Notes: generated by a model from the sequence alone, not told the origin. A stretch of 32,000 bases of DNA from Gemmata obscuriglobus (GCF_008065095.1 NZ_CP042911.1:1110001-1142000); one strand, 5' to 3'. Counted from the stretch's first letter, positions 5,013-29,758 are shown. Translations and numbers: made by a program.

Positions 5013-5417
5013 GTGCGTGCATTAGCTGGGGCCGGTTTGGCCCTGATTTGTGCCGCCCTCGCCGGGTGCGGGGGCGGCGGTGGGTCGGCGGTCGAAGGCG
5101 CCGTCACTTACGACGGCACCCCGGTGAAAGCCGGCGCCATCTCCTTCATCGCGGCCGACACCAAGGGCGGCGGGAGCGGGGGGGCGGCGATCGTGGACGG
5201 CACCTACAAGATTCCCGGGGAGCCCGGGCTCAAGCCCGGAAAGTACAAGGTCGAGATCCGGTGGGCGAAGCCGACCGGGAAGAAGTTCAAGAGCGAGTCC
5301 GGCGACATGCTCGACATGACCGAAGAGGGGCTGCCGGAGAAGTACCACATCAAGTCGGAACTGACCGCCGAAGTGACGTCCGGTCCGAACAAGATCGACT
5401 TCACTCTCGCGAAGTGA
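5013..5417 (+). CDS. small lipoprotein, beta-sandwich (carboxypeptidase-regulatory-like) partner of the DUF1559 gene
   Basis: GTG at 5013 has GGAGG 5 nt upstream (5003-5007). The lipobox is LALICAALAGC followed by GGGGG. It starts 20 nt after the DUF1559 stop, so it is probably co-transcribed. The ORF-track start at 4914 would overlap the upstream gene. Confidence 0.72.
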   Translation: MRALAGAGLALICAALAGCGGGGGSAVEGAVTYDGTPVKAGAISFIAADTKGGGSGGAAIVDGTYKIPGEPGLKPGKYKVEIRWAKPTGKKFKSESGDMLDMTEEGLPEKYHIKSELTAEVTSGPNKIDFTLAK

Positions 5418-13481: not shown

Positions 13482-15272
13482 TCACGCCGGACCGGTCAGC
13501 CAGACGGCCGCGAGCCGGCGGGTCCGGCGGACGATCCGCTCGGCGATCCCGACCCCCGCGACCCCGGCCCCGATGAGCCCCACCGTGAGCACCCGGAACC
13601 CGAGCGTGAGGACCCCGTCGGCCAGCGTCAGCAGCAACACCGCCCCCACCAGCGGGACCGCGCACGCGAGCGTCATGAGCGCGCCGAGCGGGGCCGTCAG
13701 CGGTTGCACCTCCGCCCGCGCCGCCGCCGGGGCGAACGCGTCCGGGTTCCCCAGGTGCGGGTACAGCGCGCGGAACACCACGTAGGTGATGCACAGGTAA
13801 CTGAACACGCACCCGATCAGCCCGGCCAGCGCGAACGACACGAAGTAGTGCGCGTAGGTCTGCCACCCGAGCGGCCCGGCCAGCACGTCGATGGCGACCG
13901 GGAACACCAGCGCGCCCGGCAGCCAGCCCACCGCACCCAGCACCGCCGACCGAGCGCCGATCCGCCGCACCTCGCCGCGCAGCGCGTCCAGTTGGGGGCC
14001 GCTCAGCGCCCCGACCACCGGGAGCTTGCGGGTGATGCGCCAGAACAGCCACAGCCCGATGCCCCCGCACGTCGGGTACACGACCAGGTTGTACGCCCAC
14101 AGCAGCCGCTCGAACACCATGCCCTGCGCCGCGCTCAGGTTCACCTCGACGAGGTTGTACCCGATCTGCACCACCGACGCGGCGGCGTGCGGGAGGATGC
14201 CCGCCAGCGCCAGCGCCAGGGCCGGCCGCGCGCCCACCCGCCGGTCCAGCGGCGTGGGCGCCGGCAGCTCCCGCCGGGCGGCCATGAGCCGCCCCGCCGC
14301 GCCCAGCGCCGCCGCCAGCTCGGCCGCAGACGAATACCGGTCTGCCGGGTCCGGGCGGAGCGTGCGGCGGATCACCGCGGCCAGTTCGCGGGGCACCCGG
14401 TCGAGCGCGTCCGGGCCGCCCGGCTCCGGGGACTCCGGCGGCGGCGCCAGCCGGGGCGGTCGGCGGCCGGTGGCCAGTTCGTACAGCACCACCCCGAGCG
14501 AGTACACGTCGCACCGCTCGTCGGCCGCGCCGCCGGGCAGCCCGGCCATCGCGGCGTAGTACTCGGGCGCCATGTACGCCAACGTGCCCCCGTACCGCAC
14601 CCCGTCCCGGTGCCGGGTGCGGTCGAACGCCACGTTGAAGTCCGCCAGCATCGGCCGCCCGTAGGGCGTGATCAGGATGTTCCCCGGCTTGATGTCGCAG
14701 TGCAGCACGCCGCGGGCGTGCGCGAACGCGAGCGCCTCGGCCAGCCGCGCCCCAAGCCGGCACACGGCCTGCGGGAACTCGTCCGCCCCGAGCGCCTCGC
14801 GGTCCCGCAGCGCGGCCGGGTCGAACCCCGGGTCGCCGCGCCGCAGCCGGTCGAGCGCGGCCAGCAACTCGGCCCCGGACTGCGGCTGGCGGCCGCCCTC
14901 GTACAGGTGGCGGATCAGCACCCCGAGGTCCGCCCCGGGCACGTACTGGAGGCACAACCCGGCCAACCCGGTGTCGGGGTCCGCGAACGCCGAGAACACC
15001 TTCACGATGTGGTCGTGCTCGAGGCCGGCGAGCAACTGCCCCTCGCTGCGCCCGGCCATCTCGCGGTCGGTCACCTTGAGCGCGACGTGCCGCCCGAGCG
15101 ACACCTGGTGCGCCAGGAACACCTGCCCGAACGCCCCCTGCCCCAACTTCGAGACGATCTCGAAGTCACCGACGCGGGGCGGGACGGCCGCGCCGCCCCC
15201 GTGCGCCCAGGGGGGCGGATTGGAAATCCGGGTGGTCTGGTCCGGCGGTGAGTCGTCGGGGAGCGTGCTCAT
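13482..15272 (-). CDS. serine/threonine protein kinase with polytopic membrane C-terminal domain
   Basis: Hanks-type motifs are present: [25 protein letters not shown] and TLAYMAPE. The C-terminal roughly 230 aa contains multiple hydrophobic helices. ATG at 15272 (MSTLPDD...) was chosen over the ORF-track start at 15434. Confidence 0.9.
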
Positions 15273-15532
15273 CAGTCGGTCCGGCGGCAAAGCGGGGCAC
15301 CACCACCGTTTTACGACCCGCGGCAGCTCTACAAGGAAGGTGCGACCGTAAAGCACCGCCCTCACCCCGCGGCACCGGCACTTCCCCTTGCCGGGAACTG
15401 GAAGCGATTGCTCCTGGCCCGTTTCTGCCGCCACCGCCGGCGCCGGTGGACCGCCGCAACCGCCCGGCGCTGAACGCCGGGGTGCCCGACGGCTACACTA
15501 CCGACAGCAGTTCCGAAGCAGGGAGCAAATCT

Positions 15533-17143: not shown

Positions 17144-18394
17144 CTACTTCGCGTTCTTGGCCTTCCACAGCCCCATTTCGATCTTCAGCCGGGTTTGTGT
17201 CGCGTAGTTCAGCAACTGCGGTTTGTATGCACCGGCCTCGACGCGCCGTTGCGTATATTGCTCCTGGTCCTTCGCTGCGACGAGCAACTCTTCAAGCCAG
17301 GGGACGAGTTCCTTTGGCTGCTCCGCCCACAACTCCGTCGCCGCCGCCTGGATGTCCAGCAAGCAGTTCGCATCGAGGACGAAGGAGTTCGGATCGGGTC
17401 CGGAATGCTGGTTCCATTGGGGGAGTTGGAACTGGAGCGTGCCCTGGTGCAACCGGGCCTTGAGGAGCTTGCGTGCGGTGTCATCGGTCGGCTCGATCTT
17501 CAGGGCTACCACTCCGAACAGCCGCGGGCACCGGTCGGTGTAGCGCGCCATCCGTCTGGCAAAGGCGAACGACGACCAGCCGCTATTCCCAAGGACTCCC
17601 GCAACCACCGGGGGAACAATGTCCGGGAACAGGGTCGGGGGCACCTTCGTGCCCGCGATCCAGTCGCCTTCAGCAGGCACTGCCTTCTCGCGTGCTGTTG
17701 TCGGCTGTGTCTTGCTCGGCTCGGCTTGGGGGTTCTTCGCCCTCCACAGGACCAACTCGAGTTGAAGTCGCACGCGCGTCATGGACATCACCTCTGGTGG
17801 CCTAAGAGACCCCACCTCAACTCGTAACCGCGTGAACCGCTCGAACTGCTTCGCCGCGACGATCAACTCTTCGAGCCAGGGAACGAGCTCTTTTGGCTGC
17901 TCTCTCAACAGCTCCGCCAGCGTGCTTTGTATTTCCAGAAGGTTAACGCCTGGGCGCCCGGCGTCAGACAGAGGCCGTCCCTCGATCGGCTTCAAATGCT
18001 CCTGGTACTCGAGAATGAGTTGGTGCGTATGGGCCTTTAAGAGCTTCCGAAGTGCGTCATCGGTCGGCTCAATTTTCAGGACCGCTTTCCCGAGGAGCCG
18101 CGGGCACAACTCGTTGAAGGCCGCCGCGCGCCTTTTCCAGAACACCTCCACGTCTTCTTTCCCGTCCCACTCGGCTGGAGTGAACACGAGATCGGGAAAC
18201 ATACTGGGCGGAACGCGGATGTCCCGGCGCGAGTCGTGCCGGTCGGCGCGAAACGCGGTGAGCGGCGGGAGCCACGCCGCGTCGTCGGCTTTCGGCGTCG
18301 CATCGGGTTTCTTCTCGTCACCCGCTCGCACCCCGCTCGTGGCGAACGTCACGCACAAGACCGCGAACAACACCCGCTTGGCCGAAGTGCGCAT
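17144..18394 (-). CDS. secreted hypothetical protein with two tandem homologous domains of about 160 aa
   Basis: ATG at 18394 has GGAGG 6 nt upstream. The signal peptide is MRTSAKRVLFAVLCVTFATSGVRAG. Repeat 1 (aa 61-221) and repeat 2 (aa 251-414) share VPPxxFPD, CPRLxG..LKIEPTDD..RKLLKA, EQPKELVPWLEEL..AAK and LW[RK]AKN. G+C is visibly lower than in the flanking genes. Confidence 0.75.
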   Translation of the reverse strand: MRTSAKRVLFAVLCVTFATSGVRAGDEKKPDATPKADDAAWLPPLTAFRADRHDSRRDIRVPPSMFPDLVFTPAEWDGKEDVEVFWKRRAAAFNELCPRLLGKAVLKIEPTDDALRKLLKAHTHQLILEYQEHLKPIEGRPLSDAGRPGVNLLEIQSTLAELLREQPKELVPWLEELIVAAKQFERFTRLRVEVGSLRPPEVMSMTRVRLQLELVLWRAKNPQAEPSKTQPTTAREKAVPAEGDWIAGTKVPPTLFPDIVPPVVAGVLGNSGWSSFAFARRMARYTDRCPRLFGVVALKIEPTDDTARKLLKARLHQGTLQFQLPQWNQHSGPDPNSFVLDANCLLDIQAAATELWAEQPKELVPWLEELLVAAKDQEQYTQRRVEAGAYKPQLLNYATQTRLKIEMGLWKAKNAK

Positions 18395-18468
18395 TTTAGC
18401 CTCCGAAATGCGATCGATTCGCCTCTCGTTCGACCGAGTCGATGGTATCGCGTTCCGATCGCGTTCAC

Positions 18469-18494
18469 AACGCCGCGCCTTCAAACCGCGTTCC
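18469..18494 (-). promoter_or_regulatory. candidate ECF-type promoter (GGAAC-N17-CGTT) upstream of the duplicated-domain gene
   Basis: The minus strand reads GGAACgcggtttgaaggcgcggCGTT, about 75 nt upstream of the ATG at 18394. This is a motif match only. Confidence 0.3.
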
Positions 18495-18652
18495 GCATCT
18501 CGGCTGGCGAATGGACGGTCCGACCGGGTAATTTGCCCCCTTGGGGCTCCGCGGCGGTACGCGGACATTTTTTCCCCACTCATCGAAGGGACGGATGGGT
18601 GGGCGCCAATATACGGTGGGCCGGCACGACGCCGGCCCTCGGAGGCAAGGGA

Positions 18653-20536
18653 ATGTCGCAGAGCGTACTGACCGCGGCCGTCACCCGGGTGCGCCGGGCG
18701 GCTCGCGCCGATTCGGCCGACGGGGAGCTGGTCACCCGGTTCGGCGCCACCGGCGACCCAGACGCGTTCGCGGAGCTGGTGCGCCGGCACGGGCCGATGG
18801 TGTCGGCGGTGTGCCGGCGGGTCACCCGGCACCGGCACGACGCCGAGGACGCGTTCCAGGCCGCGTTCCTGGTGCTGGCCCGCAAGGCCGGCGAGCTGGA
18901 CCCGCCGGGCGCGGTGGGCGGGTGGCTGTTCGGGGTGGCGGTGAACACCGCCCGGGCGGCCCGGCGGCGGTCCGCCCGGCGGTACGCCCGCGAGTCGCTG
19001 ACGGCGGCCCCGCCCGAGGCCGGCGGGTGCGAGCCGGAGCCGGACTTCGACACCCGGGCCGCGGTGGCCGAGGCGGTGGCCGAGTTGCCCGAGCGGTACC
19101 GCGCCCTGGTGGTCGCGTGCGACCTGCGGGGCGAGCCCCAGGCGGTGGTCGCGCGGCGGCTCGGGCTGCCGGTGGGGACCGTGTACAGCCGGCTCTCGAG
19201 CGCCCGCCGGTTGCTCGCCGAGCGGCTCCGGCGCCGGGGCGTCGGGGCCGCGTCGGGTGCGGCGGCGCTGGGCGCGCTGGCGCCCGACGCGGCGGCACTC
19301 CCACCGATCTCCGATTGCCCGTCCGCGAGCGTCACGGAACTGACGGAGGCGATCATGGCACAAGGGTCTACGCTGAAGTGGAAGCTGGCCGCGTGTGTGG
19401 TGCTGGTGGGCGTCACACTCGGCCTGGGCGCGGAGCCGTTCAAGCCGGCCGCCGTGCCCGCACCGGCCCCGCGGCCGGCGGACGAGTCGCGGCTGGTGCT
19501 GCGGTTCGGCGGGCACGTCCGGTTCCTGAAGCCGGACGGCACCGAGGTGGCGCGGGTCACCGCGGCGGACGCGGTGAAGGCCGGAGCGGACATGCCGACG
19601 CAGTCGCTCTCGCTCGGCCTTTCATCGAGCGAGGGGATCCGCGCCGTGCGGTCCGAGGAGTTCGGTCTGTGCGGCCGGGCCGCCCCGGATGGGCGGCTCC
19701 CGCTCGAAACCCGTAAGGGGCTGTACCTACTCACCTCGGGCACGCCGCCGGTCGTTGCTCCGGTGAAGGCGGCAAAAGGTGACGCGGCGCTGTTTGCATC
19801 GGGCGAGGTGCCGCCCATCGTTGCCTGGTCGGCGGACGGCAAACGGGCCGTCGGTTGCCGGCTCAAGCACCCTCTGTTCTCGACGCCCGTGTACGAGCAC
19901 GTGCTGATCGATCTGGCCGCGGGGACAACGACCGCGCTGAACCTGCCGAAGAACCATAAGGTCGTGGACTGGTCCGCGGACGGATGGTTCCTCACCATCG
20001 GCGAGGAGCGCTTGGGGTACCTGAAAGGTTGGTCGGTGACATCGCAGGCGCTGTGCAAGGTGTCGGCGAACGGCCGGATCAGCGAGGTTCTGGCCACTTA
20101 CTCGTTCACAGGGGATTGGACGCAAAACGGAGAATGGCTCAACACCGCGGCCCTGTCGCCGGACGGCACGCGCGTGGCGTGCCTCGTGAACACCACGGAA
20201 CCGGTGGGCGAGAAGAAAGAGCCACTTCTGGGCCTGAAAATTACGGCGTTTGATCTCGCTAAAAAAGAACGGGTTGCGGTCCTTCACGAAGAGCGGAGCA
20301 AACGGGTCGCGGGGAGGAGCAGCAATCGACTTCCCTACGCCCTGAACTGGGCGCCGGACGGCTCCCGCCTCGCATTCCTTTGCTTCTCACACGACTACCA
20401 GTCCGATGCGCTGGCATCGTCCGGCTGGCACGTCGGTGTGGTCGGTGCGGACGGGACAGGAGCGAAGACCGTCTTCAGCTCCGACTTTCCAGGCGGAAAG
20501 GGGATGCCCACCACCGCCCAACTCGACTGGCGGTAA
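18653..20536 (+). CDS. ECF (sigma-70 family) RNA polymerase sigma factor fused to a TM helix and an extracytoplasmic beta-propeller-like (PD40/WD40-like) domain
   Basis: GGAGG lies 7 nt upstream of the ATG at 18653. Region 2 reads FAELVRRHGPMVSAVCRRV...DAEDAFQAAFLVLARKA. The region 4 HTH reads LPERYRALVVACDLRGEPQAVVARRLGLPVGTVYSRLSSARRLL. A single TM helix (WKLAACVVLVGVTLGLGA) follows. The C-terminal roughly 370 aa carries recurrent WSADGKRAV, WSADGWFL, LSPDGTRVA and WAPDGSRLAF motifs. Confidence 0.85.
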   Translation: MSQSVLTAAVTRVRRAARADSADGELVTRFGATGDPDAFAELVRRHGPMVSAVCRRVTRHRHDAEDAFQAAFLVLARKAGELDPPGAVGGWLFGVAVNTARAARRRSARRYARESLTAAPPEAGGCEPEPDFDTRAAVAEAVAELPERYRALVVACDLRGEPQAVVARRLGLPVGTVYSRLSSARRLLAERLRRRGVGAASGAAALGALAPDAAALPPISDCPSASVTELTEAIMAQGSTLKWKLAACVVLVGVTLGLGAEPFKPAAVPAPAPRPADESRLVLRFGGHVRFLKPDGTEVARVTAADAVKAGADMPTQSLSLGLSSSEGIRAVRSEEFGLCGRAAPDGRLPLETRKGLYLLTSGTPPVVAPVKAAKGDAALFASGEVPPIVAWSADGKRAVGCRLKHPLFSTPVYEHVLIDLAAGTTTALNLPKNHKVVDWSADGWFLTIGEERLGYLKGWSVTSQALCKVSANGRISEVLATYSFTGDWTQNGEWLNTAALSPDGTRVACLVNTTEPVGEKKEPLLGLKITAFDLAKKERVAVLHEERSKRVAGRSSNRLPYALNWAPDGSRLAFLCFSHDYQSDALASSGWHVGVVGADGTGAKTVFSSDFPGGKGMPTTAQLDWR

Positions 20537-23246: not shown

Positions 23247-24551
23247 ATGAGTACCACACAACCGGCCCGGTCGGCGTCGGAATGGGGCGTGTTCCAACAG
23301 TTGCTGGCTCGGGACGTGATCGATGCGCTGGCCCCGCCACCGGCCCGAGCGGTGTACACCCCGTGGGTGGTGCTGTGGCTGCTGGTGTACCAGCGGCTCC
23401 ACGGGAACGGCTCGCTGGGTGATGCGGTGAGCCACTTCCTCACCCAGTTCCCGAGCGCCGCCGAACAGCCGTCGGGGGCCACCGGGGGGTACCGCCACGC
23501 TCGCACTCGGCTCCCCAATGCGGTGGTCGCCACCGCCGGGCGCCGGGTGTTCGACACCCTGGTGGCCGCATACCCCCCGTCGTGGCGCGGGCGCCGGGTG
23601 TTCATGATGGACGGCACCACCCTGCGGTTGGCCCCGACCGACGCGCTGCGGGGCGCGTTCACCCCGGCGTCTAACCAGCACGGCCGGTCCCATTGGCCGG
23701 TGATGCATCTGGTGGTGGCCCACGAGTTGGCCAGCGGGTTGGCCGCGCCCCCGCAGCACGGAGCCATGTACGGGCCGGGGGCGGTGGGCGCGGTGCAACT
23801 GGGGCTTCGGTTGATGCCCGATCTGCCACCCGGTTCGGTGATCCTTGGGGACCGCAACTTCGGGGTGTTCGGGTTGGCCCACGGGGCGGTGGCGGGTGGA
23901 CACGACGCGGTGCTGCGGCTCACCCAGAGCCGATTCCAGGCGCTGGTGAAGAAGGCTCAACCCGCCGGGGACGGGCGGTGGGCGCTCACGTGGCACCCGA
24001 GCGTGGCGGATCGCAAGGGGAATCCGGACCTGCGTGCCGACGCGGTGCTCACCGGCTGGTTGCACGAGGTGCCGATCGGGGGCGACCAGCCGCTGTGGTT
24101 GTTCGCCACGGTGGACGGCACCGGGGCCGAGTGGGGGGGGCTCTACCGGCGCCGGTTGGACGTAGAGACGGACATCCGGGATGTGAGGCGCACGCTCGCG
24201 CTGGACCAGACCCGCGGGCGCACGGTGCCGATGGTGGAGAAGGAGTTGGGAGCGGCGCTGCTGGCGTACAACCTGGCCACCCAGGTGCGCCGGGTGGCGG
24301 CGGCCGCGCGTGGGGTGGAACCGCGACGAGTCAGTTTCGCCGGGGTGTGGAGCTTGGTACGGGCGATGGTCCCGATGCTCCGACCGGAACCCGCGGACGG
24401 GCACTGGGAGACCTGGTTCGAGCGGCTCGTTAAGGCCGCCGGGCAGCGGCTGGTGCCCGCCCGCGAGCCCGGACGTCAGTACCCATGCGAACTCATACCC
24501 AAAAGGCGGGGATACCCCGAACGGAAACGACCAAATAAGCAGGCGAGTTAG
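23247..24551 (+). CDS. IS4-family DDE transposase
   Basis: Catalytic-region motifs are VFMMDGTTL (D), VILGDRNFG (D) and YRRRLDVETDIRDVRR, which is a Y-2-R-3-E-6-(K/R) signature. Length is 434 aa. The stop codon lies just inside the right IR. Confidence 0.88.
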   Translation: MSTTQPARSASEWGVFQQLLARDVIDALAPPPARAVYTPWVVLWLLVYQRLHGNGSLGDAVSHFLTQFPSAAEQPSGATGGYRHARTRLPNAVVATAGRRVFDTLVAAYPPSWRGRRVFMMDGTTLRLAPTDALRGAFTPASNQHGRSHWPVMHLVVAHELASGLAAPPQHGAMYGPGAVGAVQLGLRLMPDLPPGSVILGDRNFGVFGLAHGAVAGGHDAVLRLTQSRFQALVKKAQPAGDGRWALTWHPSVADRKGNPDLRADAVLTGWLHEVPIGGDQPLWLFATVDGTGAEWGGLYRRRLDVETDIRDVRRTLALDQTRGRTVPMVEKELGAALLAYNLATQVRRVAAAARGVEPRRVSFAGVWSLVRAMVPMLRPEPADGHWETWFERLVKAAGQRLVPAREPGRQYPCELIPKRRGYPERKRPNKQAS

Positions 24552-24877: not shown

Positions 24878-27800
24878 ATGCCGTTCCGCCCCACGGTCGA
24901 GCGACTCGAGGACCGGACCGTCCCCGCACTGGTCGCGCAGCGCGGCGACTTCCTCATGATCGGCAACACGCTGGCCCAGGACGCCGGCCCGGGCGTGGTC
25001 GCGCCGGTCGTCGGCACGGTCGGGGCGACCGGCACCAACACGAACGACACCGCCCCCGACGTGTACTGGCGCGCCGACGACCCCACCGCCGGCGCCGCCG
25101 CCGCGAACACGTCGATCACCGTCGCGCAGGCCCGCACCACCGCCGTCCTCACCGTGCCCGCCGGCGCCACGGTCACGCACGCGTTCCTGTACTGGGCCGG
25201 CACCGGCACGGCGGACGCCACCGCCGCCCTCGAGCGGCCCGGCGTGTTCACCCAGGGCGTCACCGCCTCCGCCACGTACACCGCGGCGCTCAACGGCCTG
25301 GCCTACATGGGCGTGGCCGACGTGACGGCCCTGGTGCAGCAGTACGGCAGCGGCGCGTACCGGGTCAGCGATGTGAGCGCGCTGTCCCTCACCAACGTGA
25401 ACAACTCGTCGCTGTTCGCCGGCTGGTCGCTGGTCGTCGTCTACGCCCGCAGCAGCGACCCGTTCCGCACCTTTTTCATTTCCGACCAGCTCAACCAGGT
25501 GCTCAACGGCGGGTCCACCACGGTCGCGCTCAACGGGTTCACGGTGTCCAGCCCGGGGGGCCGCCTGGGGGTCATCGCGTTCGACGGCGACGACTCGCTG
25601 AGCGGGGACGGGCTGTCGGTGAACGGCGTCGCGCTGTCCAACGCCAACAACCCCGCGAACAACGTCTTCAACAGCACCCGGACGAACGACGGGGCCGTGT
25701 CGAGCGACCCGGGCGACCTGCCCCGGCTGACCGGCGGGCCGCGCAGCATGAGCGGCGTCGACATCGACACGTTCGACCTGGCCGGGGCGCTGGCGAGCGG
25801 GCAGACGCAGGCCACCGCCGAGGCCACCACGACCAACGACTCGTACCTCGTCGGCCCGCTGATCCTGGCGATCAACAGCTTCGCCCCGGAGTTCGGCCCG
25901 TCCACCCTCACCGCCACCGACCTCAACGGCGGGGCGCTGCTGCCCGGCGACGTGGTGAGCTACACCGTCTCCGTGCAGAACCAGGGGGACGACGCCTCGT
26001 TGGGGTCCGCGCTGGCGGCGGCGCTGCCGGCCGATGTCACCTACGTGCCCGGGTCGCTCCAGATCCTCTCCGGGGCGAACGCCGGCCCCCAGACCGACGC
26101 CGCGGGCGACGACCCCGGCACCTACGACCCGGTCGCCCGGACCGTGTCCGTGAACCTCGGCGTCGGGGCCGGCGCGGGCGGCGGGGGGCGGCTCGGGATC
26201 GCGGAGACCACCACCGTCACGTTCCAGGTGGTCGTGAACGCGGGCGCCACGCAGGTGGTGATGCCGGTGACCGTGACCGGGGCGGGCGAGACCGGCACCA
26301 CGCCCGTCTCCACCACGCTGACCAGCACCCTGGCCGTCAGCCAAAACGCCACGCCGGCCCTGACCGACCTGGACGGCGACACGGTCCCGTGGGCCGGGGT
26401 CGGGAGCACCGTGCGCCCGGACGCCGGGACCGCCCTGACGGCCGCCGACGCGGACCTGGAGGCGCTCAACGGGGGCCTCGGGGACTGGGCCGGCGCCGCG
26501 CTCACCGTCCGGCGGTCGGGCACCGCCGTGCTCACCGACGTGTTCGGGTTCGACCCGGCCGGCGCGCTGTTCGCCGTGAACGGCAACGCGCTCGAAGCGG
26601 GCGGGCAGGCGTTCGCCACGTTCACCGCCGCCGCGGGCGTGCTCACGGTCGCCTTCACCAGTTCCGGCACCGCGGCCACCACCGCCCTGGTGCGGGACGT
26701 GCTGCGCCGCGTCACCTACCGGAACGACACGCCCGCCGGTGATGCCCCTCTGGTGTACGACCTGAGCGACGGCATCGTCTCGGCGGTGGCGACGGTCACG
26801 ATCACGTCCGACGAGATCTACGTGAACGACGCCGGCGACGCCGCGGACGCCGACCGCAACACGGTCACGCTGCGCGAGGCCGCGGCCGTCGCGGCGGCCC
26901 AGCCGGGCGCGCAAACGGTCCGGTTCGTGTCCGCCGCCTTCGCCGCGCCGCAGACGGTCACGCTCGGCTCGGCCCTCGCGCTCGACGCGGGCCTGACGCT
27001 CGACGCCGGCAACGCGGCCGGCGTCACGGTCACCGGCGCGGCGGTGCAACTGGGCGGCGCGCTCACCTACGTCGCGGGCGCCGGCGACAGCGACACCCTC
27101 GCGAGCGCGATCACCGGCGCCGGAACGTTAGCCAAAACGGGCGCCGGGACGCTCACCCTCTCGGGCACCAACAGCTACACCGGTGGGACCACCGTCACCG
27201 GCGGCACCCTGAGCGTCACCGACGGCGCGAACCTGGGCACCGGACCGGTAACACTGGCCGGCGGCACCACCCTCGAAGTGACCGGGGCCGGTACCCTTGC
27301 GAACACCGTCACCGGCGCCGGCGCGCTCACGAAGACCGGCGCCGGGACGCTCACCCTCTCGGGCGCGAACAGCTACGGCGCCACCACCGTCACCGGCGGC
27401 ACCCTGAGCATCACCGACGGCGCGAACCTGGGCACCGGGGCCGTATCACTGGCCGGCGGCACCACCCTCGAAGTGACCGGGGCTGGCACCCTCAGTAACG
27501 CCGTCACCGGCGCCGGCGCGCTGGTTAAGTCCGGGGCCGGAACGCTCACCCTCTCGGGCACCAACACCTACACCGGTGGGACCGCCGTCACCGGCGACAC
27601 CCTGAGCATCACCGACGGCGCGAACCTGGGCACCGGAGCCGTATCACTGGCCGGCGGCACCACCCTCGAAGTGACCGGGGCCGGCACCCTCAGTAACGCC
27701 GTCACCGGCGCCGGAACGTTAGCCAAAACGGGCGCCGGAACGCTCACCCTCTCGGGCACCAACAGCTACGGCGCCACCACCGTCACCGCCGGCACCCTGA

Positions 27801-29758
27801 GCATCGCGGGGGATTCTAACCTCGGGGCCGGAACGGTGACACTGGGCGCCGGTGCAACCTTTGAGGTCACCGCGGCGGGCACGGTCGACAACGCCGTCAC
27901 CCTGGCCGGCGCCGCAACGCTTCGCACCACCGCCGACGTGCTGCTGTCCGGTGTCGTCGGCGGCGCGTTCGCGCTGACCAAGTCCGGAACCGGAACGCTC
28001 ACGCTGTCCGCCGCGAACACGCACAGCGGGGCGTTCACCGTCGGGGCCGGGGCGGTGTACGTGACCGGCACCCTCGCGAGTTCGGCCGTCACCGTGAGCG
28101 CGGGCGGGTTGCTCGGCGGGACCGGAACCGTGTCCGGGCCGGTGACCGCGGCCGGCACGGTGGCGGCCGGCGTGGCGGGCGCGGGCGTGCTCACGCTCTC
28201 CGGCGGGGTCACGTTCCCGGGCGGCGGCACGGCCGCGGTCGAGCTGAACGGCACCGCCCCCGGCACCGGGTACGATCAGGTGGGCAGCGGGCCGGTCGAT
28301 CTGACGGGCGCGACACTTTCCGCCGTGCTCGGGTTCACCCCGGCCGGCGGGACGAGCTTCGTCGTCATCAACAACGCCAGCGGTTCGCCGGTCACCGGGA
28401 CGTTCAGCGGGTTGCCCGAAGGGGCGACGGTCACGATCGGCGGGGTGCCGTTCGCCGTCAGCTACGCCGGCGGCGACGGGAACGACGTGACCCTCACGGC
28501 CGCGGCGGCCGCGGCGGCCCCGGCGGTGTCGATCGGGGACGTGACCGCGAGCGAAGGCGCGGACGGGCTCGCCGCGTTCGTGTTCACGGTGCGCCTGTCG
28601 GCGGCGAGCCTCGTGCCGGTCACGGTCACGTACACCACGGCCGCCGGCACCGCCGGGGCGGGCACCGACTTCGTACCGGTCACCGGCACCCTGGTCTTCG
28701 CGCCGGGCGTCACGGAACTGACGGTTTCGGTCGGCGTGGTCGGCGACCCGGTGCCGGAACCGGACGAGCGGTTCACAGTGGTGCTCACGGGGGTGACGAA
28801 CGCGACCGTCGGCCGCGGCGCCGCCACCGGCACCATCGCCAACGACGACCCGCCGCGGATCGTGATCGGGGTCGGCACCAGCGGCGCGACGGCCGGCATC
28901 GTCCAGCCGGTGAACCCGCTCACGGGCGTGCTGGGCGACCCGGTCCGGCCGTATGAGGGGTACGCCGGGGACGTGCGGGTGTCGTCCGGGGACATGGACG
29001 GGGACGGGCTCGTCGACATGATCACCGGCGCCGGCCCGGGGCCGATGGGCGGGCACGTGAAGGTGATCGACGGGCGGACCGGCGCCGAGCGGTTCAGCTT
29101 CCTGGCGTTCGAGGGGTTCCGCGGCGGGGTGCAGGTGTCGTCGGGGGACATCGACGGGGACGGGCACGACGACATCATCGTGGCGGCGGACGCGGGCGCG
29201 GTCCCGCACGTGAAGGTGTTCAGCGGGCGCGACGGGTCGCTGCTGCGGAGCTTCCTGGCCTACGACGCCGGGTTCCGCGGCGGGGTGCGGGTGTCCGCGG
29301 CGGACATCGACGGGGACGGGCTCGACGACATCGTGACCATGAGCGGCGCGGGGTCGGCGCCGCACGTGCGGGCGTTCGGCGGGCGCGACGGGGGCGTCCT
29401 GATCAGCACGCTGGTGGCGGGCCGCCCGACCGGGGGGCTGTACGTCGCGGCCGGCGACCTCGACGGGGACGGGTACGCCGAGGTGGTGACCGGGTCCGGG
29501 GTCGGCGACCCGCCGGTCGTGAACGTGTACGGCGGCCGGGGCGGCGCGCTGGAGCGGAGCTTCCTGGCGTACCTGGCGGGGTTCGTGGGCGGGGTGCGGG
29601 TGGGGGTGGAAGAGATCGACGGGCGGGCGATGATCCTGACCGGCGCCGGCCCGGGCGCGGGGCCGCACCTGTGCGCGTTCGGGGCCGCCGGCGGCGACCC
29701 GCCGCTGAGCATGTTCGTCGGCCCCACCAGCGTCCATGGCGGGGTGTACGTGGGCTGA
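24878..29758 (+). CDS. giant surface/secreted protein (1626 aa): N-terminal LEDRxVP motif, beta-rich domain, DUF11-like repeat, autotransporter-associated beta-strand (PATR) repeats, Calx-beta domain, FG-GAP/VCBS beta-propeller repeats
   Basis: GGAGG lies 10 nt upstream of the ATG. PATR units read GAGTLTLSG.NSY.G.TTVTGGTL. The Calx-beta-like segment runs VSIGDVTASEG...DERFTVVLTGVTNATV...GTIANDD. There are at least five copies of a D[IM]DGDG...VTG.G....PHVKVF.GRDG...SFLAY FG-GAP-type repeat. GC3 is very high throughout. Confidence 0.92.
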   Translation: MPFRPTVERLEDRTVPALVAQRGDFLMIGNTLAQDAGPGVVAPVVGTVGATGTNTNDTAPDVYWRADDPTAGAAAANTSITVAQARTTAVLTVPAGATVTHAFLYWAGTGTADATAALERPGVFTQGVTASATYTAALNGLAYMGVADVTALVQQYGSGAYRVSDVSALSLTNVNNSSLFAGWSLVVVYARSSDPFRTFFISDQLNQVLNGGSTTVALNGFTVSSPGGRLGVIAFDGDDSLSGDGLSVNGVALSNANNPANNVFNSTRTNDGAVSSDPGDLPRLTGGPRSMSGVDIDTFDLAGALASGQTQATAEATTTNDSYLVGPLILAINSFAPEFGPSTLTATDLNGGALLPGDVVSYTVSVQNQGDDASLGSALAAALPADVTYVPGSLQILSGANAGPQTDAAGDDPGTYDPVARTVSVNLGVGAGAGGGGRLGIAETTTVTFQVVVNAGATQVVMPVTVTGAGETGTTPVSTTLTSTLAVSQNATPALTDLDGDTVPWAGVGSTVRPDAGTALTAADADLEALNGGLGDWAGAALTVRRSGTAVLTDVFGFDPAGALFAVNGNALEAGGQAFATFTAAAGVLTVAFTSSGTAATTALVRDVLRRVTYRNDTPAGDAPLVYDLSDGIVSAVATVTITSDEIYVNDAGDAADADRNTVTLREAAAVAAAQPGAQTVRFVSAAFAAPQTVTLGSALALDAGLTLDAGNAAGVTVTGAAVQLGGALTYVAGAGDSDTLASAITGAGTLAKTGAGTLTLSGTNSYTGGTTVTGGTLSVTDGANLGTGPVTLAGGTTLEVTGAGTLANTVTGAGALTKTGAGTLTLSGANSYGATTVTGGTLSITDGANLGTGAVSLAGGTTLEVTGAGTLSNAVTGAGALVKSGAGTLTLSGTNTYTGGTAVTGDTLSITDGANLGTGAVSLAGGTTLEVTGAGTLSNAVTGAGTLAKTGAGTLTLSGTNSYGATTVTAGTLSIAGDSNLGAGTVTLGAGATFEVTAAGTVDNAVTLAGAATLRTTADVLLSGVVGGAFALTKSGTGTLTLSAANTHSGAFTVGAGAVYVTGTLASSAVTVSAGGLLGGTGTVSGPVTAAGTVAAGVAGAGVLTLSGGVTFPGGGTAAVELNGTAPGTGYDQVGSGPVDLTGATLSAVLGFTPAGGTSFVVINNASGSPVTGTFSGLPEGATVTIGGVPFAVSYAGGDGNDVTLTAAAAAAAPAVSIGDVTASEGADGLAAFVFTVRLSAASLVPVTVTYTTAAGTAGAGTDFVPVTGTLVFAPGVTELTVSVGVVGDPVPEPDERFTVVLTGVTNATVGRGAATGTIANDDPPRIVIGVGTSGATAGIVQPVNPLTGVLGDPVRPYEGYAGDVRVSSGDMDGDGLVDMITGAGPGPMGGHVKVIDGRTGAERFSFLAFEGFRGGVQVSSGDIDGDGHDDIIVAADAGAVPHVKVFSGRDGSLLRSFLAYDAGFRGGVRVSAADIDGDGLDDIVTMSGAGSAPHVRAFGGRDGGVLISTLVAGRPTGGLYVAAGDLDGDGYAEVVTGSGVGDPPVVNVYGGRGGALERSFLAYLAGFVGGVRVGVEEIDGRAMILTGAGPGAGPHLCAFGAAGGDPPLSMFVGPTSVHGGVYVG
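27113..27900 (+). repeat. four tandem 195-198 bp intragenic repeats (65-66 aa PATR double units)
   Basis: Unit starts (ACCGGCGCCGG...) are at 27113, 27311, 27506 and 27704. Units 2 and 3 differ by only a few bases over more than 100 nt. Units 1 and 4 share an identical 5' segment (ACCGGCGCCGGAACGTTAGCCAAAACGGGCGCCGG). Confidence 0.9.

What the first reader, a model, noticed from the sequence alone, without database searches (positions are those of the whole stretch)
17144..20536. Divergent module: membrane-tethered ECF sigma/beta-propeller fusion plus a secreted, internally duplicated ORFan with an ECF-like promoter
Seen in the sequence:
- One ORF (18653-20536) encodes complete ECF sigma regions 2 and 4. 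These are followed by a single TM helix and a domain of about 370 aa with four W/LS(A/P)DG blade-like motifs.
- The sigma factor and a putative extracytoplasmic sensor are therefore one polypeptide, and no separate anti-sigma gene is visible.
- 258 bp away on the other strand is a signal-peptide protein (17144-18394) made of two homologous domains of about 160 aa. Neither domain has any motif I recognise.
- The only GGAAC-N17-CGTT match in the intergenic region faces that gene (18469-18494, minus strand).

Established knowledge: ECF sigmas with long C-terminal TM/WD40-like extensions have been noted in comparative genomics of Gemmata-type planctomycetes. As far as I know, their activation mechanism and regulons are uncharacterised.

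Inference: the duplicated protein could be the regulon output, or a periplasmic ligand or modulator of the propeller. Activation would require proteolytic release of the sigma domain.
Basis: partly seen in the sequence, partly recalled or inferred. Interest (0 to 1): 0.75.

Follow-up and report, generated by a model that had tools for sequence, protein, structure and literature searches.

The report
Membrane-anchored sigma factor plus sensor-domain paralogue
A Gemmata gene for a known type of membrane-anchored sigma factor with a periplasmic beta-propeller sits beside a secreted protein built from two copies of an unannotated helical domain, which other sigma factors and BlaR1-like proteins use as their outer domain; the promoter link proposed between the two genes does not hold.

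Summary
The window is Gemmata obscuriglobus.

ORF B (18653-20536, +) is ECF sigma2/sigma4, a 45-aa linker, one TM helix and a TolB-like beta-propeller. This fits the published planctomycete group ECF57 (formerly ECF01-Gob), including its two conserved cysteines. It is not a new architecture.

ORF A (17144-18394, -) has a signal peptide and two 47%-identical helical domains, which I call "X". It is not an ORFan.
- A profile of X finds 544 protein clusters.
- X forms free secreted proteins with 1-5 copies.
- X is the extracytoplasmic domain of sibling sigma-TM-X factors, one of which G. obscuriglobus encodes elsewhere.
- X occurs as repeats on BlaR1-type M56 proteins.
- It has no Pfam family and no relative in the PDB.

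GGAAC-N17-CGTT is at chance level (0.38 expected per window) and is lost in the informative orthologue. All X-X orthologues instead share TTGTGR-N17-TAYNAT followed by a palindrome, including in genomes with no sigma-propeller gene nearby. ORF B's own conserved upstream motif has no copy facing ORF A.

The gene pair is kept only in G. obscuriglobus, G. algarum and one metagenomic contig. In Frigoriglobus the divergent partner is sigma-X itself. Both gene types are anchored to the flank of priA.

ORF A is most likely a soluble accessory of X-type receptors, not ORF B's output. Interest is moderate.

The parts
18653..20536 (+). ORF B, 627 aa: membrane-anchored ECF sigma factor with a periplasmic beta-propeller (G. 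obscuriglobus WP_010045883, annotated 'SigE')
   Evidence: Translation; Pfam and NCBIfam; AlphaFold model with pLDDT 81.9; Foldseek; identified through cluster member P0183.
18776..19216 (+). Sigma region 2 (aa 42-109) and region 4 (aa 136-188), with the conserved cysteines C54 and C156
   Evidence: Pfam. C54 is invariant and C156 is at least 90% conserved across 42 homologues. Residues checked. Foldseek matches SigE/RseA, AlgU and SigW.
19235..19378 (+). Cytoplasmic juxtamembrane linker (aa ~195-242), including the conserved helix SVTELTEAIM (aa 225-236). It has no recognisable anti-sigma domain and no HxxxCxxC motif.
   Evidence: V227 and L230 are nearly invariant. The model has a helix at 225-236 with low pLDDT. 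No anti-sigma Pfam hit.
19379..19435 (+). Single transmembrane helix (aa ~243-261, WKLAACVVLVGVTLGLGAE)
   Evidence: Hydropathy; helix 242-258 in the model; a hydrophobic stretch at the same alignment position in all homologues.
19490..20533 (+). Periplasmic TolB/PD40-like beta-propeller (aa ~280-627) with seven xxDG motifs and a C-terminal DWR
   Evidence: About 25 beta strands. Foldseek matches TolB 2ojh at 1e-8 and the propellers of S9 peptidases. Pfam PD40 is sub-threshold at 16.6 versus 20.9 bits. Motifs listed.
17144..18394 (-). ORF A, 416 aa: secreted protein made of two X domains (WP_010045884, GobsT_09410)
   Evidence: Translation; 100% identity to P0001; AlphaFold pLDDT 84.5 and pTM 0.83.
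18323..18394 (-). Signal peptide (aa 1-24), with predicted cleavage VRA|GD
   Evidence: Read directly from the sequence, with an N-terminal hydrophobic window. 62 of 70 free X proteins with a complete N-terminus have a hydrophobic N-terminal segment. No SignalP run was possible.
17723..18226 (-). X domain 1 (aa ~57-224), a five-helix unit
   Evidence: Internal repeat; helices 58-196 of the mature-protein model; X1 groups with X1 of orthologues.
17147..17650 (-). X domain 2 (aa ~249-416), a five-helix unit
   Evidence: It is 40-50% identical to the C-terminal domain of sigma-TM-X proteins.
18469..18494 (-).
   Evidence: 0.38 expected per window and 32 of 100 shuffles give at least one. GGAAC is absent in L001, L002, L003 and L007.
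18442..18470 (-). Conserved promoter-like element TTGTGA (18465-18470), N17, TACCAT (18442-18447) upstream of ORF A
   Evidence: GTTGTG and TA..AT are invariant at fixed spacing in six X-X upstream regions from five species-level lineages. It matches only 8 of 12 consensus positions, so the sigma-70 scan does not call it. Its status rests on positional conservation.
18413..18443 (-). Remnant of a 13-bp inverted repeat (ATCGGTTCrGTCC-N5-GGrCyGAACCGAT in relatives) between the -10-like hexamer and the Shine-Dalgarno sequence
   Evidence: 89.7% of cells paired and two compensatory pairs. The hairpin is strong in L001 and L002 (z -4.8 and -7.1) but decayed in the window (z -0.66).
18500..18655 (+). 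Conserved upstream region of ORF B: TCGGCTGGCG (18500-18509), GGGTAA (18526-18531), hairpin plus T-run (18548-18573), CGAAGGG-N12-GCGCCAATATA (18584-18613), 8-bp hairpin (18618-18638), GGAGG Shine-Dalgarno and ATG
   Evidence: Alignment of six orthologue and paralogue upstream regions from three genera; terminator-like call; the motif is unique in the window; fold.

Best explanation
**Shown**
- ORF B is a one-polypeptide transmembrane signalling sigma factor of the planctomycete ECF57 type. It has a cytoplasmic sigma2-sigma4 core, a short linker, one TM helix, a Pro-rich spacer and a periplasmic TolB-like propeller.
- ORF A is a Sec-exported periplasmic protein made of two ancient copies of an unannotated ~160-aa five-helix domain, which I call X.
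- X is an extracytoplasmic module. It occurs behind signal peptides in 1 to 5 copies, behind the TM helix of sibling sigma factors (sigma-TM-X, same sigma core and same two cysteines), and as repeats after the membrane domain of BlaR1-type M56 proteins.
- The two genes lie together because both belong to a variable region on the 3' flank of priA. The layouts seen are: priA -> X genes -> sigma-X in most Gemmataceae; sigma-propeller <-> sigma-X in Frigoriglobus; sigma-propeller <-> X-X, X-X, X, sigma-X in contig L001.

**Inferred**
- ORF B is held inactive at the membrane. It is released or activated when its propeller binds a periplasmic partner, most likely by regulated proteolysis as in IutY or SCO4117.
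- ORF A is transcribed from its own conserved TTGTGR-N17-TAYNAT promoter. It is not part of ORF B's regulon.
- ORF A acts as a soluble paralogue of the X ectodomain, either as co-receptor or as decoy. Its target would be X-bearing receptors such as G. obscuriglobus sigma-X (WP_010046060).
For: **Architecture of ORF B.**

**Fit to ECF57.**
- The literature describes WD40-like C-terminal extensions, two conserved Cys in sigma2 and sigma4, and about 5.3 copies per planctomycete genome (PMC8999054, PMC7826278).
- C54 and C156 are conserved.
- More than 1273 homologues carry variable C-terminal domains.
- Gemmataceae ECFs are recovered in detergent fractions (PMC8567305).

**X domain.**
- Internal repeat at E 8e-44.
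- Homology to the C-terminus of sigma-TM-X proteins at 40-50% identity, E 1e-40 to 1e-20.
- 544 clusters.
- Architectures among the top 150 representatives: X1 78, X3 35, X2 19, sigma+X 14, X4 2, M56+X 2.
- 62 of 70 free X proteins have a hydrophobic N-terminus.
- The model is confident and helical, with pTM 0.83.
- G. obscuriglobus sigma-X carries X at E 3e-62.

**Synteny.**

**Own promoter.**

**No ORF B-type motif facing ORF A.**

**X-X without a sigma-propeller.** X-X genes persist where no ORF B orthologue is adjacent (L002, L003, L007). No full-length ORF B orthologue named for G. massiliana, Gemmata G18 or SH-PL17 appears among the top 120 hits.
Against: - No experiment exists on any ECF57 member, and no direct evidence exists for any X-X interaction partner.
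- A PWM of the highly conserved sigma-X upstream motif finds nothing near ORF A. There is therefore no promoter evidence tying ORF A to sigma-X either.
- In G. obscuriglobus the sigma-X gene is far away.
- The divergent adjacency of a sigma-propeller gene with an X-bearing gene recurs in two genera (window, L004/L005, L001, L018). This could reflect a functional link to the propeller rather than shared ancestry.
- TTGTGA-N17-TACCAT matches only 8 of 12 consensus positions. In priA-adjacent genomes TTGTGA overlaps the priA stop codon.
- Topology and the signal peptide were not checked with dedicated predictors.
Confidence: 0.5

Rival explanations
1. One reading: ORF A is the regulon output of ORF B. 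It would be transcribed from the ECF-type promoter GGAAC-N17-CGTT at 18469-18494 (-) once the sigma domain is released.
For: The motif exists, faces ORF A and is the only one in the window. The genes are divergent neighbours in G. obscuriglobus, G. algarum and L001. The spacer is highly conserved.
Against: - The motif is at chance level: 0.38 expected, and 32 of 100 shuffles give at least one.
- GGAAC is lost in L001 and absent in L002, L003 and L007, while the CGTT is part of the conserved GTTGTGR element.
- X-X keeps its upstream element without an adjacent sigma-propeller gene.
- The motif conserved upstream of ORF B orthologues across genera (CGAAGGG-N12-GnGCCArTAyA), the best candidate for autoregulation, has no copy facing ORF A.
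Confidence: 0.08
2. ORF A is a periplasmic ligand or modulator of ORF B's propeller, in the manner of RseB or a TolB partner. The X domain, free or tethered on sigma-X, is what the propeller senses, which would couple the two sigma factors.
For: A sigma-propeller gene lies divergently next to an X-bearing gene in two genera. The partner is X-X in the window, L004, L005 and L001, and sigma-X itself in Frigoriglobus L018. Both products are predicted to be periplasmic. TolB-type propellers are protein-binding modules (established knowledge).
Against: Four other ORF B orthologue or paralogue contexts have no X gene (L019/L020, L021, L022, L023). Seven X or sigma-X loci have no sigma-propeller gene. 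Both gene types are independently anchored to priA, so adjacency can be explained by descent. No interaction was tested.
Confidence: 0.17
3. ORF A has no regulatory role. X is a generic periplasmic helical repeat, structural or binding, and the gene sits next to ORF B only through the history of rearrangements in the priA flank.
For: Most X proteins are free proteins with 1-5 repeats. The region carries transposases in several genomes. ORF A has a lower GC3 (0.78) than its neighbours (0.95-0.96). X-X differs strongly between otherwise near-identical loci.
Against: X is repeatedly fused to two different families of transmembrane signal transducers, ECF sigma and BlaR1-type M56. Free X genes sit immediately upstream of sigma-X in L001 and L009, with a remnant in L010. 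This points to a signalling context.
Confidence: 0.25

Closest known systems
ECF57 (originally ECF01-Gob) sigma factors of Planctomycetes (Jogler et al. 2012; Casas-Pastor et al. 2021, PMC7826278; review PMC8999054)
   Same: An ECF sigma2/sigma4 core, planctomycete origin, a long C-terminal extension with WD40/PD40-like repeats, two conserved cysteines (one in sigma2, one in sigma4), no neighbouring anti-sigma gene, and many paralogues per genome.
   Different: Nothing architectural. Assignment by the ECF Hub group HMM could not be run. The sibling sigma-TM-X proteins replace the propeller with the helical X domain. I did not find that variant described in the papers I could read.
IutY of Pseudomonas putida (ECF243) and SCO4117 of Streptomyces coelicolor (ECF52): sigma factors fused to a transmembrane C-terminal extension and activated by proteolysis (PMC8999054)
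   Same: One polypeptide made of a sigma core, TM helix and extracytoplasmic domain. This gives the logic of activation by release from the membrane.
   Different: Those proteins carry a recognisable anti-sigma domain (FecR-like or zinc-finger ASD) between sigma4 and the TM helix. ORF B has only a ~45-aa linker with no such Pfam match and no HxxxCxxC. Proteolysis of ORF B is untested.
TolB / PD40 beta-propellers
   Same: The best fold match is 2ojh at E 1e-8. ORF B also has xPDG blade motifs and a periplasmic location.
   Different: Pfam PD40 scores below its threshold (16.6 versus 20.9 bits). There is no TolB N-terminal domain, and the propeller is attached to a sigma factor.
BlaR1/MecR1-type M56 signal transducers
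   Same: Some planctomycete-type M56 proteins (P0319, P0284) carry 3-4 X-like repeats as their extracytoplasmic part. X therefore serves as an ectodomain in a second family of one-polypeptide transmembrane signal transducers.
   Different: ORF A has no M56 domain and no TM segment. It is only the free ectodomain module.
RseB/MucB-type periplasmic modulators of sigma-E signalling, and domain mimicry as in PhyR
   Same: A soluble periplasmic protein that could modulate proteolytic activation of a membrane-bound sigma regulator. It is also a free-standing copy of a domain used in the signalling chain.
   Different: No sequence or fold relationship exists. This is an analogy of mechanism only and is untested.

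Membership tests
ECF57 / ECF01-Gob | ECF-type sigma core (regions 2 and 4 only) | tested here: met
   Pfam Sigma70_r2 and Sigma70_r4_2, NCBIfam TIGR02937 at 74.4 bits against a 42.9 cutoff. Fold matches to SigE, AlgU and SigW.
ECF57 / ECF01-Gob | Planctomycete origin and multi-copy family | tested here: met
   The window is G. obscuriglobus. More than 1273 homologues were found, essentially all from Gemmataceae or planctomycete sources.
ECF57 / ECF01-Gob | Long C-terminal extension with WD40-like repeats | tested here: met
   AlphaFold beta-propeller with Foldseek hits. Homologues carry PD40, WD40 and Tricorn_N Pfam hits.
ECF57 / ECF01-Gob | Two conserved cysteines, one in sigma2 and one in sigma4 | tested here: met
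   C54 is invariant and C156 is at least 90% conserved in 42 sequences.
ECF57 / ECF01-Gob | No cognate anti-sigma gene in the neighbourhood | tested here: met
   The flanks are ORF A and priA. No anti-sigma Pfam hit was found among neighbours.
ECF57 / ECF01-Gob | Score above threshold with the ECF Hub group HMM | not testable with these tools
   The ECF Hub models are not in any available library.
Sigma/anti-sigma fusions activated by regulated intramembrane proteolysis (IutY, SCO4117) | Recognisable anti-sigma domain between sigma4 and the TM helix | tested here: not met
   No RskA, zf-HC2 or FecR hit. The linker is about 45 aa with no HxxxCxxC.
Sigma/anti-sigma fusions activated by regulated intramembrane proteolysis (IutY, SCO4117) | Stimulus-dependent proteolytic release of the sigma domain | not testable with these tools
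   This needs immunoblots of tagged protein and protease mutants.
TolB/PD40 propeller | Pfam PD40 repeat above the gathering score | tested here: inconclusive
   16.6 bits against a 20.9 cutoff. The fold match is clear.
DUF885 (the UniRef name attached to ORF A) | Match to Pfam DUF885 | tested here: not met
   No DUF885 hit even at E<=1. The name appears only as a UniRef cluster label.
X domain (unnamed family defined here) | A ~160-aa five-helix unit with the motifs PPSAFPDL, CPRLxG, TDDxLRKLLKA, ELWxxQPKELxPWLEE and RHRLxxExxLWKAKN, in an extracytoplasmic context | tested here: met
   Both halves of ORF A align to the profile. Model. Family size and architectures.

The most novel reading that the evidence does not exclude
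The priA-flank locus encodes a two-sigma periplasmic circuit. The X domain, either free (X-X) or tethered on sigma-X, would be the physiological ligand of the sigma-propeller. Free X-X would titrate or bridge the two membrane-anchored sigma factors. That would give the first handle on how ECF57-type sigma factors are activated, through sensor-domain mimicry in the periplasm.
Probability: 0.15. Interest if true: 0.65.

Novelty: new member of a known kind. Interest (0 to 1): 0.38.

Why it matters
ECF57-type membrane-anchored sigma factors are among the most expanded regulators in Gemmataceae, and none has been studied experimentally.

This locus does not add a new architecture. It does show three things:
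- The ectodomains of these sigma factors are exchangeable modules.
- One such module, X, is an unannotated family of several hundred clusters. It is shared with BlaR1-like transducers.
- That module also exists as free secreted proteins encoded next to the sigma genes.

This gives a concrete and cheap pair of hypotheses to test: free ectodomain paralogue as co-receptor or decoy, versus ligand of the propeller.

The work also corrects two database labels. The DUF885 name on ORF A is unsupported, and the G. algarum orthologue is annotated as a truncated 311-aa protein.

Tried and rejected
1. **Shared promoter between X-X and sigma-X genes.** By eye the two upstream regions look alike (TGTATGA / TTGTGA ... 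CGG..TAT). A gapless PWM from nine non-redundant sigma-X upstream regions gave only negative scores in the window, and the best intergenic hit ranked 319th. Rejected.
2. **Fold relatives of X.** Foldseek against the PDB gave nothing below E 0.37, only designed helical repeats and 14-3-3. A profile against PDB sequences gave nothing below E 1.1.
3. **Rfam on the whole window.** No hit. The conserved leader hairpins are not known RNA families.
4. **Sigma-70 consensus scan of the spacer.** It called no promoter. The TTGTGA-N17-TACCAT element matches only 8 of 12 positions.
5. **A target-site-duplication explanation for the sigma-propeller insertion.** I looked for GTTGTGA at both ends. The priA 3' end in the window reads CTGTAA, not TTGTGA. 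Dropped.
6. **Genome-wide pattern scan for X loci.** It returned only 10 loci and not G. obscuriglobus itself. I did not use it for statistics.
7. **Papers that could not be read.** Jogler 2012 and Wiegand 2020 are not held. Casas-Pastor 2021 has no supplement text held. The ECF57 description therefore rests on PMC8999054, PMC7826278, PMC5766207 and PMC8567305.

Full report
**Identity and observation**

The window is from Gemmata obscuriglobus. ORF A (17144-18394, minus strand) is 100% identical to GobsT_09410 / WP_010045884. ORF B (18653-20536, plus strand) is WP_010045883, annotated "SigE".

For ORF B:
- Pfam Sigma70_r2 covers aa 42-109 and Sigma70_r4_2 covers aa 136-188. NCBIfam also gives an ECF match.
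- There is one hydrophobic stretch at aa ~243-261.
- The C-terminal part is all-beta. An AlphaFold model built on 42 homologues has pLDDT 81.9.
- Foldseek identifies that part as a beta-propeller. The best match is TolB 2ojh at E 1e-8, followed by the propellers of S9 peptidases. The N-terminus matches SigE/RseA, AlgU and SigW.
- There are seven xxDG blade motifs, not four.

For ORF A:
- The N-terminus looks like a Sec signal peptide.
- The two halves are 47% identical (E 8e-44).

The flanks are asnS and priA. No anti-sigma gene is present.

**ORF B is a known kind**

The literature describes planctomycete ECF sigma factors with WD40-like C-terminal extensions as group ECF57, earlier called ECF01-Gob. 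The group has two conserved cysteines, one in sigma2 and one in sigma4. It has about 5.3 copies per planctomycete genome, and no member has been characterised (PMC8999054, PMC7826278, PMC5766207). Gemmataceae ECFs with WD40 domains are recovered in detergent-soluble fractions (PMC8567305).

ORF B meets every feature I could test. C54 is invariant and C156 is at least 90% conserved. It belongs to a family of more than 1273 proteins with the same sigma core, linker and TM helix but interchangeable C-terminal domains: PD40, WD40, Tricorn_N, DPPIV_N, Big_5 and others.

Unlike IutY or SCO4117, the ~45-aa linker between sigma4 and the TM helix has no recognisable anti-sigma domain. It contains only a conserved short helix, SVTELTEAIM.

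**ORF A is not an ORFan**

It has no Pfam or NCBIfam hit, and the UniRef label "DUF885" is unsupported. Its repeat, which I call X, is nonetheless widespread.
- X is 40-50% identical to the C-terminal ~165 aa of a family of 455-490-aa ECF sigma factors. These have the layout sigma core, linker (SLTEGALAML), TM helix, X.
- Their sigma cores are 40-48% identical to ORF B over aa 21-260 and carry the same two cysteines.
- G. obscuriglobus has such a sigma-X protein elsewhere in its genome (WP_010046060; X domain at E 3e-62).
- A profile of X finds 544 clusters at 50% identity among 1.84 billion representatives, 193 of them at E<=1e-10.
- Among the best 150 the architectures are X1 (78), X3 (35), X2 (19), sigma+X (14), X4 (2) and BlaR1-type Peptidase_M56 plus 3-4 X repeats (2).
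- 62 of 70 free X proteins with a complete N-terminus start with a hydrophobic segment.

X is therefore an extracytoplasmic module used by two families of one-polypeptide transmembrane transducers, and it also occurs free. This gives independent support for placing the C-terminal domains of this sigma family outside the cytoplasm.

The AlphaFold model of mature ORF A is confident, with pLDDT 84.5 and pTM 0.83. It shows two five-helix units. The high pTM for a two-domain protein suggests the two units pack against each other, but I could not inspect the coordinates, so this is an inference.

X has no relative in the PDB by fold or by sequence profile.

**Synteny**

| Context | Layout |
|---|---|
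| Window, G. algarum JC673 and JC717 (L004/L005/L008) | sigma-propeller <-> X-X |
| Metagenomic contig L001 | sigma-propeller <-> X-X, X-X, X, sigma-X, Fer4, hemH |
| Frigoriglobus tundricola (L018) | hemH, Fer4, ..., sigma-X <-> sigma-propeller ... priA |
| Gemmata G18, G. massiliana, a Gemmata MAG | priA followed directly by X-X |
| Four further loci | priA followed by X and/or sigma-X |
| Other ORF B orthologues or paralogues (L019/L020, L021, L022, L023) | no X gene nearby; L023 keeps priA |

In G. algarum the X-X gene is intact at 406 aa, although it is annotated as 311 aa. In Frigoriglobus the divergent partner of the sigma-propeller gene is sigma-X itself.

The stable anchor is the 3' flank of priA. 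That region also collects transposases. The ORF A / ORF B pairing is real but confined to one lineage.

**Promoters**

GGAAC-N17-CGTT occurs once in the window, against 0.38 expected. 32 of 100 shuffles give at least one.

The spacer is 85% conserved among four orthologous loci. In the only informative one, L001, the GGAAC region carries an insertion and the motif is gone.

All six X-X upstream regions share the following features at fixed spacing, whether the upstream neighbour is priA or a sigma-propeller gene:
- an invariant GTTGTG(A/G);
- 17 nt downstream of it, TA(C/T)N AT;
- then a 13-bp inverted repeat;
- then the Shine-Dalgarno sequence.

The inverted repeat is 89.7% paired with two compensatory pairs. 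It forms a strong hairpin in L001 and L002 but has decayed in the window.

In the window the element lies at 18465-18470 and 18442-18447 on the minus strand. It matches only 8 of 12 sigma-70 consensus positions and is not called by the scan. Its status therefore rests on positional conservation.

ORF B orthologues from three genera share a different upstream pattern:
- CTCGGCTGGCG-N16-GGGTAw;
- CGAAGGG-N12-GnGCCArTAyA;
- a hairpin;
- GGAGGCAAnGGA before the ATG.

The second of these motifs occurs once in the window, upstream of ORF B. No copy faces ORF A.

Sigma-X genes share a third pattern that is very strongly conserved: ATTTyCmCACTTTCnTGTATGA-N14-CGCGGATCAGkATGGGTGA plus a hairpin. A PWM of it finds nothing in the window.

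Promoter evidence therefore links ORF A to neither sigma factor. It most simply indicates an independent promoter.

**Mechanism**

Shown:
- the architectures;
- the homology of ORF A to sensor ectodomains;
- the evolutionary layout of the locus;
- the absence of a shared promoter motif.

Inferred:
- ORF B is inactive while tethered to the membrane. It is activated after its propeller engages a periplasmic partner, probably by regulated proteolysis as in IutY or SCO4117 (PMC8999054).
- ORF A is a soluble paralogue of the X ectodomain that acts on X-bearing receptors as co-receptor or decoy.

My confidence in this combined reading is about 0.5.

The rivals are:
- ORF A is a ligand of the propeller (0.17). 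This is supported by the recurrence of sigma-propeller / X adjacency in two genera.
- ORF A has no regulatory role (0.25).

**Verdict**

The sigma factor is a member of a known group. The useful new points are the unannotated X family and its modular use. Interest is moderate at 0.38.

Noticed in passing
window 17144-18394 versus L004 6524-7745: The X-X protein is only 42% identical between G. obscuriglobus and G. algarum. The adjacent priA is 99% identical, asnS 98%, the sigma-propeller 91%, and the spacer is nearly identical right up to the start codon. ORF A is closer to the X-X proteins of contig L001 (60-63%) and a Gemmata MAG (57%). This looks like allele or paralogue replacement, or very fast evolution, confined to this gene.
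   Followed up: partly
L001 3776-3925, L002, L009-L015, L017, L018 5758-5830 (-): Every sigma-X gene, across Gemmata, Frigoriglobus and MAGs, is preceded by the same ungapped ~55-nt block: ATTTyCmCACTTTCnTGTATGA-N14-CGCGGATCAGkATGGGTGA. A covarying hairpin follows it. This is a strong candidate for an autoregulated promoter.
   Followed up: partly
window 18548-18573 (+) and 18618-18638 (+): A terminator-like hairpin plus T-run lies upstream of ORF B. A perfect 8-bp hairpin (GGGCCGGC/GCCGGCCC) lies directly before its Shine-Dalgarno sequence. The 45 nt before the ATG are identical in four loci and nearly so in three genera. There is no Rfam match.
   Followed up: partly
P0319 (1280 aa) and P0284, metagenomic: BlaR1-type Peptidase_M56 proteins carry 3-4 X-like repeats as their extracytoplasmic part. 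The same ectodomain therefore serves two unrelated transducer families.
   Followed up: partly
window 17144-18394; L001 and L002 X genes: X genes have a lower GC3 (0.68-0.79) than neighbouring housekeeping genes (0.87-0.96) in every genome examined. Within ORF B, the sigma part has GC3 0.95 and the propeller 0.82.
   Followed up: no
window 23247-24551 (+): An IS4-type DDE transposase lies next to priA. G. massiliana has a DDE_Tnp_1 transposase beside its X-X gene, and Frigoriglobus has an IS66 transposase between the sigma-propeller gene and priA. The priA flank looks like a hot spot for rearrangement.
   Followed up: no
window 13482-15434 (-): A Ser/Thr protein kinase of 650 aa has a C-terminal half that reads as several hydrophobic segments. 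It lies two genes from ORF A. Planctomycete ECFs are often linked to such kinases, but I found no evidence of a link here.
   Followed up: no
window 24878-29758 (+): A 1626-aa protein with PATR autotransporter-type repeats, Calx-beta and FG-GAP domains.
   Followed up: no
L004/L005 6524-7745 (-); window 18394-18568: Two gene-model problems. The G. algarum X-X orthologue is annotated as a 311-aa protein (WP_320687192), although an intact 406-aa ORF with a signal peptide exists. An old 474-aa model of ORF A (UPI0002F46F7F) starts inside the spacer. The UniRef name "DUF885 domain-containing protein" for ORF A has no Pfam support.
   Followed up: yes
L010 ~5040-5090: Upstream of the G. algarum sigma-X gene (P0011), a reading frame ends ...RLKREAELRKVTNAR*. 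This resembles the X C-terminus (RLKxEAELWKAKNAK*) but gave no tblastn hit. It may be a decayed X gene.
   Followed up: no
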